Source: a phage
Strand: one strand, 5' to 3'
DNA: 46,345 nt
Sequence record: LC918680.1
Part shown: positions 15,334 to 22,829 of the stretch, in pieces
Layout: the number at the start of each line of letters is the position of its first letter
Numbering within the stretch: the first letter of the stretch is position 1
Notes under the pieces: generated by a model
What the model was told of the DNA's origin: nothing
Database searches by the model: none
Seen by the model: the letters and a program-made list of their open reading frames with translations, nothing else
Made by a program: the position numbers and the translations under genes

Positions 15334-18300
15334 ATGGCACAAATGGTCAAAACAAATGCGGAGCTATGTGATATGGCGGAAGAAATTAAGATTTATGGAA
15401 GTAAGGGCGGACAGCCAAAGCAGCACCAACCTGTAGAGCAGCCTGATAACCTGATATCCGTAAACAAGGTTAAGGTTTTGCTAGCTGTTTCTGATGGTGA
15501 GGTTGATAGCTCATTCTCCCTAAAGGACCTTTACCTTGCTGACGTTCCTGTACAGAACCAGAATGGCACATACAACTACGAGGGTGTAACGGCAGAGTTT
15601 CGCCCTGGCACACAGAGTCAGGATTACATTGCCGGGCTAGAGGGTGCTAGCTCGGAAGTGCAAGTGAACAGGGAGATTAAAAACTCAACTCCTTACATCA
15701 TTGCTGTTAATAACACCCAGCTATCAGCGATTAGGGTTAAGCTGTTTTGGCCTCGTCTGATTAATCAGGAAAGTAACGGAGATCTTAACGGTACCACTTG
15801 CGAGTATGCGATTGACCTGTCCGTTGATGGCGCTACATACACTGAGTACACGCGCGGAGTAGTTAATGGCAAGACAACTAGCGGGTACGACAGAAGTATC
15901 AGGGTTAACCTTCCTGCTGAGTTCTCGAGTGCGTTGGTGAGGGTTCGTAAGATCACGGCAGATTCAGAAAGTTCGACGCTGGTTAACGACATGCAAATTA
16001 CGACCTATCAGGAAGTAATTGATGCTAAATTCCGCTACCCACTTACAGCTCTGGTTTACGTTGAGTTCAGTTCTGACCTCTTCCCTAACGGAATCCCGAC
16101 GATTTCAATCAAGAAGAAGTGGAAGTTGATTCGCGTTCCAACTAACTACAACCCAGAGACAAGGACTTACAGCGGAACCTGGAACGGCACCTTTAAGATG
16201 GCGTATTCCAATAACCCGGCGTGGGTTCTTTACGACTTGGTGACGAATCAGCGTTACGGACTTGACCAGCGAGAGCTTGGCATTACTATTGATAAGTGGG
16301 GTCTGTATGAGGCGGCGCAATTCTGTGACCAGATGGTTCCAGATGGTAAGGGTGGAGTTGAGCCGCGCTACCTGTGTGATGTTGTCATTCAGCAGAAAGT
16401 TGAAGCATATCAGGTAATCCGTGATATTTGCTCTATCTTCCGTGGGCTGACATTCTATGACGGCGAGCAGATAGGGATTGTTGTCGATAAGCCGCGTCAA
16501 CCATCGTACGTATTCACCAATGACAACGTTGTTGATGGATTGTTCAACCGTACATTTGGTAGCGATAAGTCACTTTACACGGTTGCCAACGTTCAGTTTG
16601 ATGACGTTGAAAACTCATACCAACAGGATGTTGAGCCAGTATTCGAGTTAGAGGCAACAAGGCGTTTTGGTTACAACCCGGTCGACCTTACAGCTATTGG
16701 ATGTACTCGCAGGAGTGAGGCAAACCGCCGCGGGCGCTGGTTATTAAAGACGAACATTCGCAGCGAGACTATTAGTTTCACTACTGGTCTGGAAGGTATG
16801 ATTCCAATGATTGGTGAGGTTATTGCAGTTAATGACCAGGCATGGTCTAGCAACTACACCCTTAACCTTTCTGGTCGTATCGAGTCAGTAAGTGGGTTGC
16901 AAGTTTTTGTGCCATTTAAGATTGATGCTACTGCTGGCGACAGGATTCTAATAAACAAGCCTGATGGAATGCCAGAGTACAGGACCATTGCATCTGTATC
17001 TGAAGATGGTATGACGCTTCAACTTAATACAGCGTTTAGCTTTACTCCTCAGCCTGACACAGTATTTGCGATTGATAAGGAAAATCTTGCTCTTCAGCAA
17101 TATGTTGTGACCGGTATTCAAAAAGCAGACAGCGATGGAGATGATGCGTTTGGTTACACGATTACCGCAGTTGAGTACGACCCGAACAAATACGACGAGA
17201 TTGATTACGGCGTAAACATTCAGGACAGGCCAACTTCAATCGTGGAGCCAGATACATTACTGGCACCCGAGAATGTTCAGGTTAGCAGTTACAGTAAGGT
17301 TGTTCAGGGTTTATCAGTTGAGACAATGGTAATCACGTGGGACAAGGTTCAGTACGCGAAAACCTACACGGTCCAGTGGCGCAAGGAGAACGGAAACTGG
17401 ATTAACGTGCCGCGCACAGCAAGCACAGAGGTTGATATTGAAGGTATCTATGCCGGAATTTACCAGGTTCGCGTAAGGGCCGTTTCTGATACTGAAAACG
17501 TATCCGCATGGTCTGACATTGTTTCAGTAAGCCTCACAGGCAAGATTGGGACCCCTTCTTCACCTACAGTAATCACCGCTTCAGATGATGAAATATTCGG
17601 CATTAGGGTTAAGTGGGGATTTCCTGAAAACTCAGCCGATACGTCATACACTGAATTGCAGCAAGTAGCCGACAATGGTGATGGTACTTATACACCAGAG
17701 AATGCTAGCCTTCTGACTCTGGTGCCTTACCCGAGTTACGAGTACTGGCATACTACACTTCCTGCTGGAAAGGTCATCTGGTACAGGGCGCGACTGATTG
17801 ACAAGATTGGTAACGTCTCACCATGGACTGATTTTGTAAGGGGTATGGCAAGCGATGATGTGTCGTCAATCATTGGTGATATTAAGGTTGATATAGAAAA
17901 CTCAGATGGGTTCAAGTATCTCCAGCAGAATGCCATTGAGTCAAACGGAGCTATTCAGGCGCAAGCGGAATCAATAATTGAGAACGCCCTGGCTAATGAT
18001 GGTGACGTGCGTAGAATGACGAAGGAAAACGGCAAGAGGAAGGCCGAATTTGTTCAGGCTGTGAATCTTATCGCCGATGAAGAAAGGGCTCGCGTAGAGG
18101 CTCTGACGCAGCTTAAGGCGCAGATTGATGATGAGATTGTAGCTTCATTGACAAGGATTGATACGGCGCTAGCGGAAGAGACGCAAGCAAGGACCACTGC
18201 GGACACTGCTTTATCTGCAAGGCTAGGTGATAATGAGGCTGCGTTAAATGAGAAGCTGGACACTTACGTTACTGCCGATTCAATTGGTGCTCAGTACGGG

Positions 18301-19091: not shown

Positions 19092-19759
19092 TGAGTTATG
19101 GAGCGTACATAAATGTAAATGGTAACCCGTTCATAACCCAGAACTCAACGCCGATGGCGCTTTATAGAAAAGTTACAATTAACTCAACGAAATCAAATAA
19201 TTTCAACTCAGCTAGCGCCTCAGTAAACATACCAGGAGGAACGTCACTGATAGGTTTTGGGAGGACCAGTGGGTATGCAGCAATAAGTAGCTCAATATCT
19301 GGGAGTACAGTTTCGGTAAGCGCTAGCAACTACAAAGTTACAAATTTCACTCTTGAAGCTTATTTCTTTGCTATATTCCCACAAGAACTACCAGCGTGGG
19401 GTATGGCAATATGGGATGATTCAGGTAAGTTAATACTAACAAATGAAACAAAAGTAATGACTGACTTGATAACGATTGGTACGCCAGGAGCTTCTAGTGG
19501 AGGTGTGTTTATAGATACAACAATACAAGGTAGGAAGCTTGCTGTTTGCCCTGGGGTACTTGGTGCGGTTTTGCTTGCAGGCCCTCCTCAGCAGGGGCAG
19601 CCCACAATTCAGCCAGTCACGGCATACACTGCATGTCATGACCAAGATGGAGGAACAAGGTTTAGGTCAGCAACTTCAAGTAGCGCATCCGGCGGTAGCC
19701 TTGGAGCTTCAAACCTTGGAACAATAATGACCGCCATTGACGTTTCAATATATGACTAA
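19091..19759 (+). CDS. hypothetical Ser/Thr/Gly-rich protein (putative fibre-associated)
   Basis: 222-aa ORF start-overlapping upstream stop (TAATG); followed by strong terminator. Confidence 0.45.
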   Translation: MSYGAYINVNGNPFITQNSTPMALYRKVTINSTKSNNFNSASASVNIPGGTSLIGFGRTSGYAAISSSISGSTVSVSASNYKVTNFTLEAYFFAIFPQELPAWGMAIWDDSGKLILTNETKVMTDLITIGTPGASSGGVFIDTTIQGRKLAVCPGVLGAVLLAGPPQQGQPTIQPVTAYTACHDQDGGTRFRSATSSSASGGSLGASNLGTIMTAIDVSIYD

Positions 19760-19782
19760 GCCCCTTTCGGGGCTTTTTTATT
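19759..19782 (+). terminator. intrinsic terminator at end of + strand structural block
   Basis: AGCCCC-TTTC-GGGGCT + TTTTTT. Confidence 0.8.
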
Positions 19783-20002
19783 AACCACCACAGTCGTGAT
19801 CTTTAAAGTTAGACTCCGAAACGTAGTGGAAAGAGAATGGGTATCCAGCACGTAACAGTAGTTCGTCACCTCTTTGCTGAGTACCAAAAACATAAACCGA
19901 GTACTCTGACCCAGCAGATTCATAAATTGCGGTACAAGTGCGCTCAGGCATTGAAGAGCATCCAGTCAGTAATAACGCTGCGCAGATAATAAACTTTTTC
20001 AT
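19781..20002 (-). CDS. small lipoprotein, Cor-like superinfection-exclusion candidate
   Basis: MKKFIICAALLLTGC signal peptide with lipobox; 73 aa; convergent with tail module. Confidence 0.55.
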   Translation of the reverse strand: MKKFIICAALLLTGCSSMPERTCTAIYESAGSEYSVYVFGTQQRGDELLLRAGYPFSFHYVSESNFKDHDCGG

Positions 20003-20168
20003 AAAATCTCCTTAGAAGCCGTTAAAGTTTGAGGCAAGCAGCAGAACCCACACTAAGAAACCAGTTACAGAAGCACCCGCAAAAGTTGAAATTAAGTTAG
20101 TAGTTAATCTCTTGTTTAGGTTGTTTCGTTTCGATGTGGTAATCATAAACCATCATTAAGCTTTGTCT

Positions 20169-20858
20169 TTAGCTATTAGTGCTATTTGCAATAAACACAG
20201 CCTTTGCAAAACCGCGAGGAGTTAGGCTGCGGATTACCTTTGTCTTCTTGCTCTTTCCACCTAACTTCTTGTATTGGTCAGAGAATCCATCGTTAACGCC
20301 CACCGGAATCGCCTTAGGCCATTTAAACCCATTACCAAACCAAATGCATGTCTTCTTAGGATATGCGTCTCTTGGCTTTATTAGGTCGCTAAAAAACGGG
20401 TGTAAATCATCTTCCGGCAAATAGCCTCCGTATTCATATGGGTGGAAAGTCTTATTAGGCTTTCTCCAGAGTGATGACAGTACGCTGATTGGATTCTCAA
20501 TCATGTATGGGACTTCGTACTTATTAGCCAAGTTAAAAGCAACTTTACATGTTTCCGCAGCTTCAATCTGGAAGTTATGGTTAACCAGTCGCTTTCGCTC
20601 AAAGTGCCTTGACCCGCTCACGGCTAAATCCGTACACGGCGGGAACGCTAAAATGATATCAGGCTTCACATCAAAGTCGAAGTCGGCATCTATCCAGACA
20701 TTAACGTAGGTGATGTTCTCATGTCCAAATTTTGCATTTAAATCCACGTAACTACCGTGGTCAGACTCATCAAAGTTGAAACAGTAGCACTCGTGACCAG
20801 CCTCAGCCCAATCTTTCACAGCCAGCCCTGAACCATCAAATAAAGACCAAACAACCAT
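20169..20858 (-). CDS. putative DNA methyltransferase with C5-cytosine MTase-like motifs
   Basis: Motif I-like FDGSGL, Pro-Cys FPPCTDLAVSG, ENV-like IENP; start placed at internal ATG 20858 preceded by conserved ACGAGAGAGG leader (track start 20900 has no RBS); unusually short (229 aa). Confidence 0.5.
   Translation of the reverse strand: MVVWSLFDGSGLAVKDWAEAGHECYCFNFDESDHGSYVDLNAKFGHENITYVNVWIDADFDFDVKPDIILAFPPCTDLAVSGSRHFERKRLVNHNFQIEAAETCKVAFNLANKYEVPYMIENPISVLSSLWRKPNKTFHPYEYGGYLPEDDLHPFFSDLIKPRDAYPKKTCIWFGNGFKWPKAIPVGVNDGFSDQYKKLGGKSKKTKVIRSLTPRGFAKAVFIANSTNS
20170..20184 (-). promoter_or_regulatory. boundary motif copy 3
   Basis: - strand TAGCACTAATAGCTA overlapping MTase stop. Confidence 0.5.
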
Positions 20859-20900
20859 TTTGAAATCCTCTCTCGTTTTTTTGTGTGACCAACTATACAT

Positions 20901-21399
20901 GGTTTTGCGGATTAGTTTTAGCTATTCGTGCTGTTGGTTACGCGTAACCGATGTAACTCTATGTATACCATATGCATCAGCGGGAAATCGTATACGCCTA
21001 ATTACGCTTTGATACGCCATAGTTACATTAAAATATATATATATATCAACCTTTTACTCTTATTATTATTATTATATATATTACTGTGTATATCATGTAA
21101 CTACTGTCATGGAGCGTTCCGGTTATAATTTTTATATCATGTGATTTTATACAGTATTTCGCTGCACCTATACCTATGCACCATCCGCTAAAATTGGTAT
21201 ACACGATATACGCACCATTTACATTGAGCTATAGCTGGGCTCAGGCAGTGAAAAACGTAACCAATAGAAATGTCTACACGTAGTTACGGATTTATACGCG
21301 TATACTTGATTAATTAATCGGCGATACCAATTGGACTGTGTGTCTTGCGTGCGGCATCATTAACGCATCGAAAGCAAACAGCCACAGAGAGATAGAGAA
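20901..21399. repeat. control region A: gene-free AT-rich divergent intergenic region, paralogous to region B
   Basis: Shares with region B the blocks TATATATATCAACCTTTTACT, (ATT)n-TATATATA microsatellite and AGCTATAGCTGGGCT...CGTAACCAAT; contains palindromes GGTTACGCGTAACC (20936-20949) and TATACGCGTATA (21293-21304). Confidence 0.7.
20919..20933 (-). promoter_or_regulatory. boundary motif copy 4 (degenerate)
   Basis: - strand CAGCACGAATAGCTA upstream of MTase leader. Confidence 0.4.
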
Positions 21400-21787: not shown

Positions 21788-22759
21788 ATGACATTTAAAG
21801 TTTATACGAACGACGAGCTAACAAATGAATCCTATCACGAAGAGCAAGACCATATCTCTGGCTCTTCACTGGCTGAGATTCTTGCTACCTCACCAGCTAA
21901 ATGGAAGTTTAAGCAGCGCAATAACTCTAGCGCAGCACTTAAGTTTGGCACACTAAGTCACTGCATGATGCTAGAGCGCGAGGTGTTTGACTCAACATAC
22001 ATGCGAGCTACTGACTTTGACGAAGTGGAAGGATTGATTACTAGCCAAACGGCTTTATCCGCAGCGCTTAAAAAAGTTGGAGTTTCAGGCACGTCAGGGA
22101 AGGGTTATAACGAGCTTGTAGAGATGATGTATAAGTGTGGTGAGGATTGGCCTGTTAAATGGTTAATTGAGCAGCAGGAGAGCGCTCATGCGCTAATTAG
22201 TGGCAAAGAGCTCGTTACTGCGAAAGATTACGATAAAGTAATTCAAATGCGAGAGGTTCTAACTAATATTCCGGCATATGATTCGGTCATTAATTCACCA
22301 TCAGCGCAGAAAGAACTATCAATATTTGGTGAGATTCTCGGTTGTGGTGTTAAGGTTCGTCTTGACCATGTGGATGTTGTTGATGGTATTGTCTACATTA
22401 CTGACTACAAAACCACAGCAGATGCAAGTCCTAGAGGATTTGGGAAGTCAGCTTATGACCATGGATACCTGTGCAAGATGGCACTTCAGCGAGATCTGTT
22501 TGTGAAAGCCTTTAATGAGAAACGCAAGGTTGTAGTTCGCCTTTTGGCACAGGAGAAAGCAGAGCCTTACTTACCTATGTGCTACACGCTTACGGATGAG
22601 CAGCTTCGCATTGGGCGCTTACAATATTTAGAGGCTCTGGCTGTTTACAAGCAGTGCAAGGAACTTGATGTGTGGCCTGGGTATAGCAATGGGATTACAG
22701 AGCAAGATTTGATGATTCCTGAGTGGGTAAGTAAGCAGTATCAAGAACTTCTAAAATAG
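21788..22759 (+). CDS. PD-(D/E)xK family exonuclease (recombination exonuclease)
   Basis: VRLDHVDVVDGIVYITDYKT gives D...D-x-K nuclease motif; adjacent to Erf-like and SSB genes. Confidence 0.7.
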   Translation: MTFKVYTNDELTNESYHEEQDHISGSSLAEILATSPAKWKFKQRNNSSAALKFGTLSHCMMLEREVFDSTYMRATDFDEVEGLITSQTALSAALKKVGVSGTSGKGYNELVEMMYKCGEDWPVKWLIEQQESAHALISGKELVTAKDYDKVIQMREVLTNIPAYDSVINSPSAQKELSIFGEILGCGVKVRLDHVDVVDGIVYITDYKTTADASPRGFGKSAYDHGYLCKMALQRDLFVKAFNEKRKVVVRLLAQEKAEPYLPMCYTLTDEQLRIGRLQYLEALAVYKQCKELDVWPGYSNGITEQDLMIPEWVSKQYQELLK

Positions 22760-22771
22760 CACTAATTGCTA
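22757..22771 (+). promoter_or_regulatory. boundary motif copy 5
   Basis: TAGCACTAATTGCTA; starts at exonuclease stop TAG. Confidence 0.6.
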
Positions 22772-22829
22772 AAGACAAAATTAACAGGTGGGGTATCATT
22801 ACCCCATCGAAACGAAAGAGAGATGGGGA

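What the first reader, a model, noticed from the sequence alone, without database searches (positions are those of the whole stretch)
20169..20858. Unusually short C5-cytosine-methyltransferase-like gene
The ORF has motif I-like FDGSGL, a Pro-Cys catalytic dipeptide context (FPPCTDLAVSG) and an ENV-like IENP, but is only ~229 aa and shows no clear target-recognition domain or motifs IX/X. It may be a minimal anti-restriction methylase or another SAM-dependent enzyme.
Basis: partly seen in the sequence, partly recalled or inferred. Interest (0 to 1): 0.5.

Follow-up and report, generated by a model that had tools for sequence, protein, structure and literature searches.

The report
Compact phage Dcm-like cytosine methyltransferase
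The gene is real and encodes a compact phage DNA cytosine-C5 methyltransferase from a large, already annotated family, one member of which has been shown to make 5-methylcytosine and to set off the bacterial retron Ec86 defence, so it is an ordinary find.

Summary
The ORF at 20169-20858 lies on the minus strand and encodes 229 aa. The quoted motifs are present: FDGSGL at residues 7-12, FPPCTDLAVSG at 72-82 and IENP at 120-123.

It belongs to PHROG 757, "DNA methyltransferase" (E 1e-84). The family occurs in about 1,535 phage genomes and forms about 1,190 clusters at 50% identity, nearly all of the listed members 205-260 aa long. The short length is therefore normal for the family, not a truncation.

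The window is a T1-like Drexlerviridae phage. Its JeanPiccard ortholog (91% identical) is annotated "Dcm-like C5 cytosine methyltransferase". The protein is 58% identical over its full length to the KarlJaspers Dcm. The near-identical K42 enzyme was reported to produce 5mC and to trigger retron Ec86. Its catalytic C82, E128, K175 and K176 map to C75, E121, K168 and K169 here.

A short hypervariable segment (about residues 182-198) sits where a target-recognition domain would. A motif IX-like IRSLTPRG follows it, and no motif X was found.

This is a new member of a known kind, of low interest. The target sequence remains unproven.

The parts
20169..20858 (-). CDS for the 229-aa compact C5-cytosine DNA methyltransferase (Dcm-like, PHROG 757)
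   Evidence: ORF. phrog_757 at E 1e-84. 90.8% identical to the JeanPiccard 'Dcm-like C5 cytosine methyltransferase'. 58% identical to the KarlJaspers Dcm. Fold matches.
20866..20872 (-). Shine-Dalgarno-like GAGAGGA, with the AGGA 7 nt upstream of ATG 20858
   Evidence: Read from the sequence. No comparable site precedes the alternative ATG at 20900.
20826..20840 (-). Motif I, F7-D-G9-S-G11, the SAM-binding glycine loop
   Evidence: Invariant in the close family. Aligned to M.HhaI F18-G22 by hhalign.
20628..20645 (-). Motif IV, F72-P-P-C75-T-D77, with the catalytic cysteine C75
   Evidence: C75 is invariant in 77 diverse homologs. Aligned to M.HhaI P80-C81. Equivalent to C82 of the K42 Dcm.
20490..20498 (-). 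Motif VI, E121-N-P123 (ENV-type), with the glutamate that protonates cytosine N3
   Evidence: E121 and N122 are at least 90% conserved and P123 is invariant. Aligned to M.HhaI E119-N-V121. Equivalent to E128 of the K42 Dcm.
20340..20369 (-). Conserved D164-x-Y166-P-K168-K169-T170-C-I-W173 strand at the position of motif VIII; KK stands in place of the canonical QxRxR
   Evidence: Conservation. Strand 170-175 in the model. K168 and K169 correspond to K175 and K176, which were mutated in the K42 Dcm study. The motif VIII assignment is inferred from order and secondary structure, not from a significant alignment.
20265..20333 (-). Residues 176-198: a conserved GNGFxxP lead-in followed by the family's only hypervariable segment (about 182-198), the candidate mini target-recognition element
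   Evidence: Variation in length and sequence across 77 homologs. Lower pLDDT here, 75-78.
20211..20234 (-). I209-R-S-L-T-P-R-G216, a motif IX-like element before the C-terminal helix
   Evidence: Invariant in the close family. R210, P214 and G216 are at least 90% conserved in the wide family. A relaxed hhalign places it on M.HhaI RKLHPRE, but not significantly: E 0.08, probability 0.7%.
20012..20146 (-). 44-aa hydrophobic ORF immediately downstream on the same strand; function unknown
   Evidence: ORF. No PHROG hit.
19781..20002 (-). Cor superinfection-exclusion lipoprotein, the last gene of the same minus-strand unit
   Evidence: phrog_1119 at E 4e-27. Lipobox-type N-terminus MKKFIICAALLLTGC.
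19758..19775 (.). GC-rich hairpin between the convergent plus-strand tail-associated genes and the minus-strand methyltransferase-cor unit
   Evidence: Terminator-like site.
20859..21399 (.). AT-rich divergent intergenic region upstream of the gene, holding promoter-like sites for the minus strand (21062-21096)
   Evidence: These are consensus matches only.

Best explanation
The gene encodes an orphan, SAM-dependent DNA cytosine-C5 methyltransferase of the compact "Dcm-like" family that is common in virulent enterobacterial phages.

Mechanism, inferred from the family chemistry: the target cytosine is flipped into the active site. Cys75 (motif IV, PPC) attacks C6. Glu121 (motif VI, ENP) protonates N3. 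The methyl group of SAM, held by the F7-x-G-x-G11 loop, is transferred to C5. Beta-elimination then releases the enzyme.

The enzyme consists of little more than the catalytic Rossmann-type domain. The large target-recognition domain of canonical enzymes is replaced by a short variable loop (about residues 182-198) between a motif VIII-like strand and a motif IX-like IRSLTPRG.

The gene sits in a variable accessory region between the tail-tip gene and the recombination genes. It is read on the minus strand together with a cor superinfection-exclusion gene.

Its likely biological role is to methylate phage DNA during infection, probably at Dcm-type CCWGG sites, so that methylation-sensitive restriction such as EcoRII-type enzymes is evaded. 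As a side effect, it should make the phage detectable by retron Ec86 (Eco1), which senses methylation of its msDNA.

What is shown here: family membership, fold, conservation of catalytic residues and gene context. What is shown elsewhere for a 58% homolog: 5mC formation and retron triggering. What is inferred: activity of this particular protein, its target sequence and its anti-restriction benefit.
For: - phrog_757 "DNA methyltransferase" matches at E 1e-84 over the full length.
- tblastn finds the family in 1,535 phage records. JeanPiccard is 90.8% identical and annotated "Dcm-like C5 cytosine methyltransferase".
- The protein is 58% identical (E 4e-96, full length) to KarlJaspers bas06_0055, with C75, E121, K168 and K169 aligned to C82, E128, K175 and K176.
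- The Dcm of K42, a phage 95% identical to KarlJaspers, gave raised 5mC in msDNA by LC-MS. The effect was abolished in the C82A/E128A/K175A/K176A mutant. All four Ec86 escape phages had lesions in dcm (bioRxiv 10.1101/2023.08.16.553469). The work was published as Cell Rep 2024;43:114857, as cited.
- The AlphaFold2 model has pLDDT 87.6 and pTM 0.88.
- The top Foldseek hits are the DNMT3A/3B catalytic domains, E 3e-7.
- hhalign of the family profile against a canonical C5-methyltransferase profile aligns residues 1-129 to M.HhaI 10-127, with motifs I, IV and VI in register (E 4.4e-4).
- Catalytic residues are conserved across 77 homologs.
- No restriction endonuclease gene is adjacent, and the neighbours are Cor, tail and recombination genes. 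The enzyme is therefore an orphan.
- Two phages carrying family members have DNA reported as refractory to EcoRII: AAS23 gp52, 56% identical (PMC8004638), and KP36 gp74, 47% identical (PMC3620542).
Against: - Pfam PF00145 scores below its gathering threshold (15.5 vs 22 bits, N-terminal 90 residues only). Only 3 of 77 family members reach E 0.01.
- Sequence searches against PDB chains find no methyltransferase significantly.
- hhalign probability is only 34%. The C-terminal half has no significant alignment to canonical enzymes.
- No motif X (GN[AS]V) was found. In M.HhaI that motif contributes to the SAM pocket, so SAM binding here is assumed, not shown.
- CCWGG specificity is not established even for the K42 enzyme. 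It was assumed from host Dcm and supported only by loss of defence in msDNA site mutants, in a dcm+ host whose own Dcm left the msDNA poorly methylated.
- The variable loop of the window protein (GFSDQY type) differs from that of K42/KarlJaspers and AAS23 (NPGW type).
- The EcoRII-resistance reports may be confounded by host methylation; for KP36 the authors themselves attributed it to the Klebsiella host Dcm.
- The BASEL study saw no simple link between methyltransferase genes and restriction resistance.
- CCWGG is mildly under-represented in the window (70 observed vs about 98 expected), which gives no support either way.
Confidence: 0.85

Rival explanations
1. It is an active C5-cytosine DNA methyltransferase, but its target is not host-Dcm-type CCWGG. 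The mini recognition loop would give a different or shorter site, or a preference for hairpin or single-stranded DNA, and loop variants within the family would have different specificities.
For: - The only hypervariable segment of the family lies at the TRD position. It differs between this protein and the characterised K42/KarlJaspers type.
- In dcm+ MG1655 the host Dcm left the msDNA poorly methylated and did not trigger Ec86, whereas the phage enzyme did both. The two enzymes are therefore not functionally equivalent.
- The protein shows no specific sequence relationship to E. coli Dcm (hhalign probability 1.2%).
Against: - Mutating CCTGG in the msDNA abolished defence against K42.
- DNA of AAS23 and KP36, which carry family members, was refractory to EcoRII.
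- 34 of 35 Ec86-sensitive phages of several families carry a Dcm. That suggests a shared target across divergent family members.
Confidence: 0.25
2. It transfers a group other than methyl, for example carboxymethyl from host-made Cx-SAM as the phage enzyme CmoX does, giving 5-carboxymethylcytosine.
For: - E. coli makes Cx-SAM through CmoA. CmoX selectivity depends on an Arg replacing the motif X Asn of M.HhaI (PMC12783734).
- This family has no recognisable motif X Asn and has invariant Arg210 and Arg215 near the C-terminus.
Against: - The K42 homolog, which has the same C-terminal IRSLTPRGFA motif, produced 5mC by LC-MS in a cmoA+ host.
- The window has no other methyltransferase-motif ORF, and the genes examined around the locus show no cmoA or ligase. 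CmoX is typically found together with CmoA.
- IRSLTPR fits motif IX (RKLTPRE) better than motif X.
Confidence: 0.04
3. It is an RNA (tRNA) cytosine-C5 methyltransferase, or a catalytically inactive methyltransferase-like DNA-binding protein, and not a DNA methyltransferase.
For: - Motif X is missing and motif VIII is non-canonical.
Against: - DNA methyltransferases rank above DNMT2.
- The catalytic Cys and Glu are under strong conservation.
- The homolog methylated msDNA in a way that depended on the mutated C82/E128/K175/K176 set.
Confidence: 0.03

Closest known systems
Phage KarlJaspers (Bas06) / K42 'Dcm', the trigger of retron Ec86 (Eco1) (bioRxiv 10.1101/2023.08.16.553469; Cell Rep 2024;43:114857)
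   Same: Same family and architecture: 58% identity over the full length, with aligned C75, E121, K168 and K169 and the same C-terminal IRSLTPRGFA. Both are from Drexlerviridae coliphages.
   Different: The variable loop differs: GFSDQY here, DNPGWAK there. The genomic position differs: next to cor between the tail-tip and exoVIII genes here, among early genes near a helicase in KarlJaspers. Activity and retron triggering have not been tested for this protein.
JeanPiccard (Bas02) bas02_0026, 'Dcm-like C5 cytosine methyltransferase' (BASEL collection, PMC8594841)
   Same: 90.8% identical, same length (229 aa), and the same locus between the J-like tail-tip gene and exoVIII, on the opposite strand to them.
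   Different: The downstream genes differ. The annotation is computational only.
Canonical bacterial C5-cytosine methyltransferases (Pfam PF00145: M.HhaI, M.HaeIII, E. coli Dcm)
   Same: The catalytic-domain fold, and motifs I, IV and VI in the same order and register.
   Different: About 100-240 residues shorter. No large TRD. QxRxR is replaced by a PKKT strand. No detectable motif X. Below the Pfam threshold. No specific relationship to E. coli Dcm.
DNMT3A/DNMT3B catalytic domains
   Different: 12-18% identity. The eukaryotic enzymes keep motif X (from general knowledge of these enzymes) and act as oligomers with regulatory partners.
CmoX, a phage DNA cytosine C5-carboxymethyltransferase (PDB 8yf3; PMC12783734)
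   Different: CmoX is 333-372 aa and has a motif X Arg that binds Cx-SAM. It is typically found together with CmoA, often alongside CmoY-type ligases. No such genes were seen around this locus.

Membership tests
PHROG 757 (compact phage 'DNA methyltransferase' / Dcm-like family) | Significant full-length match to the family profile | tested here: met
   E 9.7e-85, residues 1-227 on profile positions 15-220 of 247. 1,997 homologs in the word-indexed search and 1,191 clusters at 50% identity.
PHROG 757 (compact phage 'DNA methyltransferase' / Dcm-like family) | Family-typical length of about 205-260 aa with a conserved C-terminal IRSxTPRG | tested here: met
   229 aa. Lengths of homologs. Motif conservation.
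C5-cytosine DNA methyltransferases (PF00145 class) | Pfam PF00145 score at or above the gathering threshold | tested here: not met
   15.5 bits against a cut-off of 22, residues 3-90 only. Only 3 of 77 family members match at E 0.01 or better.
C5-cytosine DNA methyltransferases (PF00145 class) | Motif I (FxGxG), motif IV (PC with catalytic Cys) and motif VI (ENV), in order and in register | tested here: met
   F7xG9xG11, P74-C75 and E121-N-P123 align to M.HhaI F18..G22, P80-C81 and E119-N-V121 (hhalign E 4.4e-4, probability 34%). Conserved in the family.
C5-cytosine DNA methyltransferases (PF00145 class) | Motif VIII (QxRxR) | tested here: inconclusive
   No QxRxR is present. A conserved D-x-Y-P-K-K-T-C-x-W strand occupies the expected position. 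No significant alignment.
C5-cytosine DNA methyltransferases (PF00145 class) | Variable target-recognition domain between motifs VIII and IX | tested here: inconclusive
   There is only a short segment that varies in length and sequence (about residues 182-198) at that position. About 181-186 of the 229 residues align structurally to catalytic domains.
C5-cytosine DNA methyltransferases (PF00145 class) | Motif IX (RxLTxRE) and motif X (GN[AS]V) | tested here: inconclusive
   IRSLTPRG resembles the motif IX consensus RKLTPRE, but the alignment is not significant (E 0.08). No GN[AS]V-like motif follows, and the protein ends 13 residues later.
C5-cytosine DNA methyltransferases (PF00145 class) | Catalytic-domain fold closer to C5 DNA methyltransferases than to other SAM-dependent methyltransferases | tested here: met
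C5-cytosine DNA methyltransferases (PF00145 class) | SAM-dependent formation of 5-methylcytosine in DNA | not testable with these tools
   Reported for the K42 homolog family member by LC-MS (58% identity measured to the KarlJaspers ortholog). Not tested for this protein.
Dcm in the strict sense (CCWGG-specific, ortholog of E. coli Dcm / M.EcoRII) | Sequence orthology to E. coli Dcm | tested here: not met
   hhalign of the family against E. coli K-12 Dcm gives probability 1.2%, with only 23 columns aligned around motif IV.
Dcm in the strict sense (CCWGG-specific, ortholog of E. coli Dcm / M.EcoRII) | Methylation of the inner cytosine of CCWGG | not testable with these tools
   Only indirect literature support for homologs. 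CCWGG counts in the window are uninformative: 70 observed against about 98 expected.
Orphan (solitary) phage methyltransferase | No cognate restriction endonuclease gene adjacent | tested here: met
   The neighbours are a 44-aa ORF, Cor, tail-associated genes, exonuclease VIII and Erf.
Triggers of retron Ec86 (Eco1) | Methylates the msDNA stem-loop and activates the effector | not tested
   Shown for the K42 Dcm only. 34 of 35 Ec86-sensitive phages carry a Dcm.

The most novel reading that the evidence does not exclude
The compact family is a minimal C5-methyltransferase scaffold: a catalytic domain without motix X, plus a recognition loop of roughly 10-35 residues. Under this reading its real substrate rule differs from host Dcm, for example a different or relaxed site, or a preference for hairpin or single-stranded DNA such as msDNA. 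The loop variants, including the GFSDQY type in this window, would then have distinct specificities. CCWGG would be a label borrowed from the host enzyme and not a measured property.
Probability: 0.25. Interest if true: 0.45.

Novelty: new member of a known kind. Interest (0 to 1): 0.2.

Why it matters
For this window the result is mostly routine annotation. The gene can be labelled a Dcm-like orphan C5-cytosine methyltransferase.

Two practical consequences follow. First, phage DNA is likely to carry 5mC, which matters for restriction mapping, bisulfite or nanopore analysis and cloning. Second, the phage is predicted to be sensitive to retron Ec86/Eco1, which senses this enzyme class.

More generally, the family is poorly covered by Pfam and NCBIfam and has been missed in published annotations. 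KP36 was reported as lacking a cytosine methyltransferase although its gp74 is a member.

The family's target sequence and the way such a small enzyme reads DNA remain unmeasured. That question is modest but tractable.

Tried and rejected
- **Direct sequence routes to canonical enzymes gave little.** NCBIfam returned no hit. phmmer and profile hmmsearch against PDB chains found no methyltransferase significantly. hhalign against E. coli Dcm alone found only motif IV at probability 1.2%.
- **The C-terminal half could not be aligned.** Aligning it to canonical motifs VIII-X gave no significant result. Model coordinates are not exposed, so the motif IX/X assignment could not be settled structurally.
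- **Longer family members were checked for informative fusions.** Pfam found nothing in nine of ten. The tenth had an HNH_2 domain, probably a homing endonuclease fused or adjacent.
- **CCWGG statistics were uninformative.** The count in the window (70 vs about 98 expected) does not bear on specificity. A comparison with relatives lacking the gene was considered and dropped, because two or three genomes give no statistical power.
- **The 243-aa form starting at ATG 20900 was rejected.** It has no ribosome-binding site, and homologs start at the inner Met.
- **Truncated pseudogene was rejected.** The whole family has this length.
- **The published Cell Reports version of the Ec86 study was not available to read**.
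- **One literature search returned nothing relevant**, and two calls failed on syntax.

Full report
**Observation**

The window has an ORF on the minus strand from 20858 down to 20169, 229 codons plus a stop. Its translation begins MVVWSLFDGSGL.

An in-frame ATG at 20900 would add 14 residues. ATG 20858 is preceded by GAGAGGA with the AGGA 7 nt upstream. Homologs, including the annotated 690-bp gene of phage JeanPiccard, start at this Met.

**Genome**

The window is a T1-like siphovirus of the Drexlerviridae (Braunvirinae). Its closest DNA matches are Escherichia phages ES and AN_ECEAS, about 91% identical over 75% of a 10-kb probe.

**Family**

- Pfam PF00145 (C-5 cytosine DNA methylase) matches only residues 3-90 at 15.5 bits, below the 22-bit cut-off.
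- NCBIfam and a phmmer search of PDB chains find nothing.
- PHROG 757, "DNA methyltransferase", matches the whole protein at E 1e-84.
- tblastn finds the protein in 1,535 phage records, mainly Escherichia, Klebsiella, Salmonella and Shigella phages, plus some Vibrio, Arthrobacter and other phages.
- An exhaustive HMMER scan finds 1,191 clusters at 50% identity with E of 0.001 or better. Nearly all full-length listed members are 205-260 aa.

The short length is therefore the family norm and not a truncation.

The best named match, JeanPiccard bas02_0026 (90.8% identical), is annotated "Dcm-like C5 cytosine methyltransferase" and lies at the same locus.

**Link to an experimentally studied member**

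A preprint on retron Ec86 (bioRxiv 10.1101/2023.08.16.553469) was later published as Cell Rep 2024;43:114857, according to citations seen. It studied phage K42, which is 95.4% identical to KarlJaspers/Bas06. The reported findings are as follows:

- All four Ec86 escape mutants had lesions in a 711-bp dcm gene or just upstream of it.
- Expressing Dcm was toxic only in cells carrying Ec86.
- The msDNA gained 5mC by LC-MS with wild-type Dcm but not with a C82A/E128A/K175A/K176A mutant.
- Mutating CCTGG in the msDNA stem abolished defence.
- 34 of 35 Ec86-sensitive phages encoded a Dcm.

I fetched KarlJaspers bas06_0055 (711 bp). It is 58% identical to the window protein over the full length (E 4e-96). 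C75, E121, K168 and K169 of the window protein align to the four residues that were mutated. The window gene thus belongs to a family with direct, if limited, biochemical support.

**Structure**

An AlphaFold2 model built from 26 homologs is confident (pLDDT 87.6, pTM 0.88).

- Foldseek against the PDB returns DNMT3A/3B catalytic domains first (E 3e-7), then M.HaeIII, DNMT1 and DIM2.

About 80% of the protein is therefore a C5-methyltransferase catalytic domain.

**Motif mapping**

I confirmed an M.HhaI sequence as identical to PDB 10mh_A. I then aligned it with seven phage C5 methyltransferases and E. coli Dcm. Comparing this profile with a 77-sequence family profile gave the following result (hhalign E 4.4e-4, probability 34%):

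| Window protein | M.HhaI |
|---|---|
| Residues 1-129 | Residues 10-127 |
| F7xG9xG11 (motif I) | F18..G22 |
| P74-C75 (motif IV) | P80-C81 |
| E121-N-P123 (motif VI) | E119-N-V121 |

The C-terminal half has no significant alignment. A relaxed alignment places IRSLTPR (residues 209-215) on M.HhaI RKLHPRE, which is motif IX (E 0.08).

Across the family, the only segment that varies strongly in both length and sequence is about residues 182-198. It lies between the conserved TCLWxGNGFxMP and LGGKSxxTKxIRSxTPRG. That is the canonical position of a target-recognition domain.

No GN(A/S)V motif X follows, and the protein ends 13 residues after G216.

**Context**

The gene is the first of a short minus-strand unit. 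A 44-aa hydrophobic ORF (20146-20012) follows it, then a Cor superinfection-exclusion lipoprotein (20002-19781; phrog_1119, E 4e-27). The unit is convergent with two plus-strand tail-associated genes and ends at a GC hairpin at 19758-19775.

Upstream lies a 540-bp AT-rich divergent region, then exonuclease VIII and an Erf-type annealing protein on the plus strand.

AN_ECEAS, one of the two closest genomes, lacks the methyltransferase at this locus. In KarlJaspers and AAS23 the homolog sits elsewhere, among early genes. The gene is therefore a mobile accessory gene in a variable region, with no restriction endonuclease partner. It is an orphan methyltransferase.

**Mechanism and role**

The most likely function is SAM-dependent C5 methylation of cytosines in DNA by the standard covalent mechanism. 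Cys75 would be the nucleophile and Glu121 the acid.

The conventional role is protection of rapidly replicating phage DNA from methylation-sensitive restriction.

- Supporting but confounded observations: DNA of AAS23 (gp52, 56% identical) and of KP36 (gp74, 47% identical) was reported refractory to EcoRII. The KP36 authors believed that phage had no cytosine methyltransferase gene and credited the host.
- Against a simple story: the BASEL study found no clear link between methyltransferase content and restriction sensitivity in Drexlerviridae.

A predicted cost of carrying the gene is sensitivity to retron Ec86/Eco1.

**Open point: the target sequence**

CCWGG was assumed for the K42 enzyme from the name of the host enzyme. 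The experiments were done in dcm+ MG1655, where the host Dcm left the msDNA poorly methylated.

The family has no specific sequence relationship to E. coli Dcm. The window protein's variable loop (GFSDQY type) differs from the NPGW type of K42, KarlJaspers and AAS23. CCWGG frequency in the window (70 observed against about 98 expected) is uninformative.

I give about 25% to a specificity or substrate preference that differs from host Dcm.

A CmoX-like carboxymethyl transfer is a further low-probability rival, at about 4%. CmoX selectivity rests on an Arg in place of the motif X Asn (PMC12783734), and this family has no visible motif X. However, the homolog produced 5mC in a cmoA+ host.

**Verdict**

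The gene is a new member of a known, widely annotated phage family, one member of which has been characterised. Interest is low. The residual interest lies in the unmeasured specificity and in the minimal architecture.

Noticed in passing
whole window (1-46345): GATC is strongly under-represented: 34 observed against about 187 expected, a ratio of 0.18. CTGCAG is absent (0 against about 10 expected). No ORF with a DPPY-type (Dam-like) methyltransferase motif was found. In JeanPiccard a small N6-adenine methyltransferase sits between exoVIII and the recombinase. That slot is empty here (22759-22788).
   Followed up: partly
window 19781-20146 (minus strand): A Cor superinfection-exclusion lipoprotein (phrog_1119) and a 44-aa hydrophobic ORF with no family match lie directly downstream of the methyltransferase. 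They appear to form one accessory unit with it. The closest genome, AN_ECEAS, has a different gene set at this locus.
   Followed up: partly
window 20859-21399: A 540-bp AT-rich divergent intergenic region holds (TA)n and (TTA)n runs, several TATACGC-like words, and a 16-nt inverted repeat (21192-21207 and 21317-21332). These may be regulatory sites for early transcription.
   Followed up: no
L016 (Klebsiella phage KP36, NC_029099) 17553-18245: KP36 gp74 is a family member: 47% identical, with motif IV reading PSC in place of PPC. The 2013 paper that found KP36 DNA refractory to EcoRII at 155 predicted sites stated that the phage had no cytosine methyltransferase gene and credited the host.
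   Followed up: partly
family alignment A2, residues about 182-198 of the window protein (window 20265-20315): Several loop types occur in the family's only hypervariable segment. The most recognisable are GYSxQ[HY], which includes this protein, and NPGW, which includes K42/KarlJaspers and AAS23. They may mark different target specificities.
   Followed up: partly
BFVD entries A0A6J5SE15 and A0A6J5NPY6; protein P0253: Two very large proteins of uncultured phages (1,397 and 1,126 aa; the first named "Helicase/UvrB, N-terminal") contain a domain with this compact methyltransferase fold. One family representative carries an HNH_2 endonuclease domain at its C-terminus.
   Followed up: no
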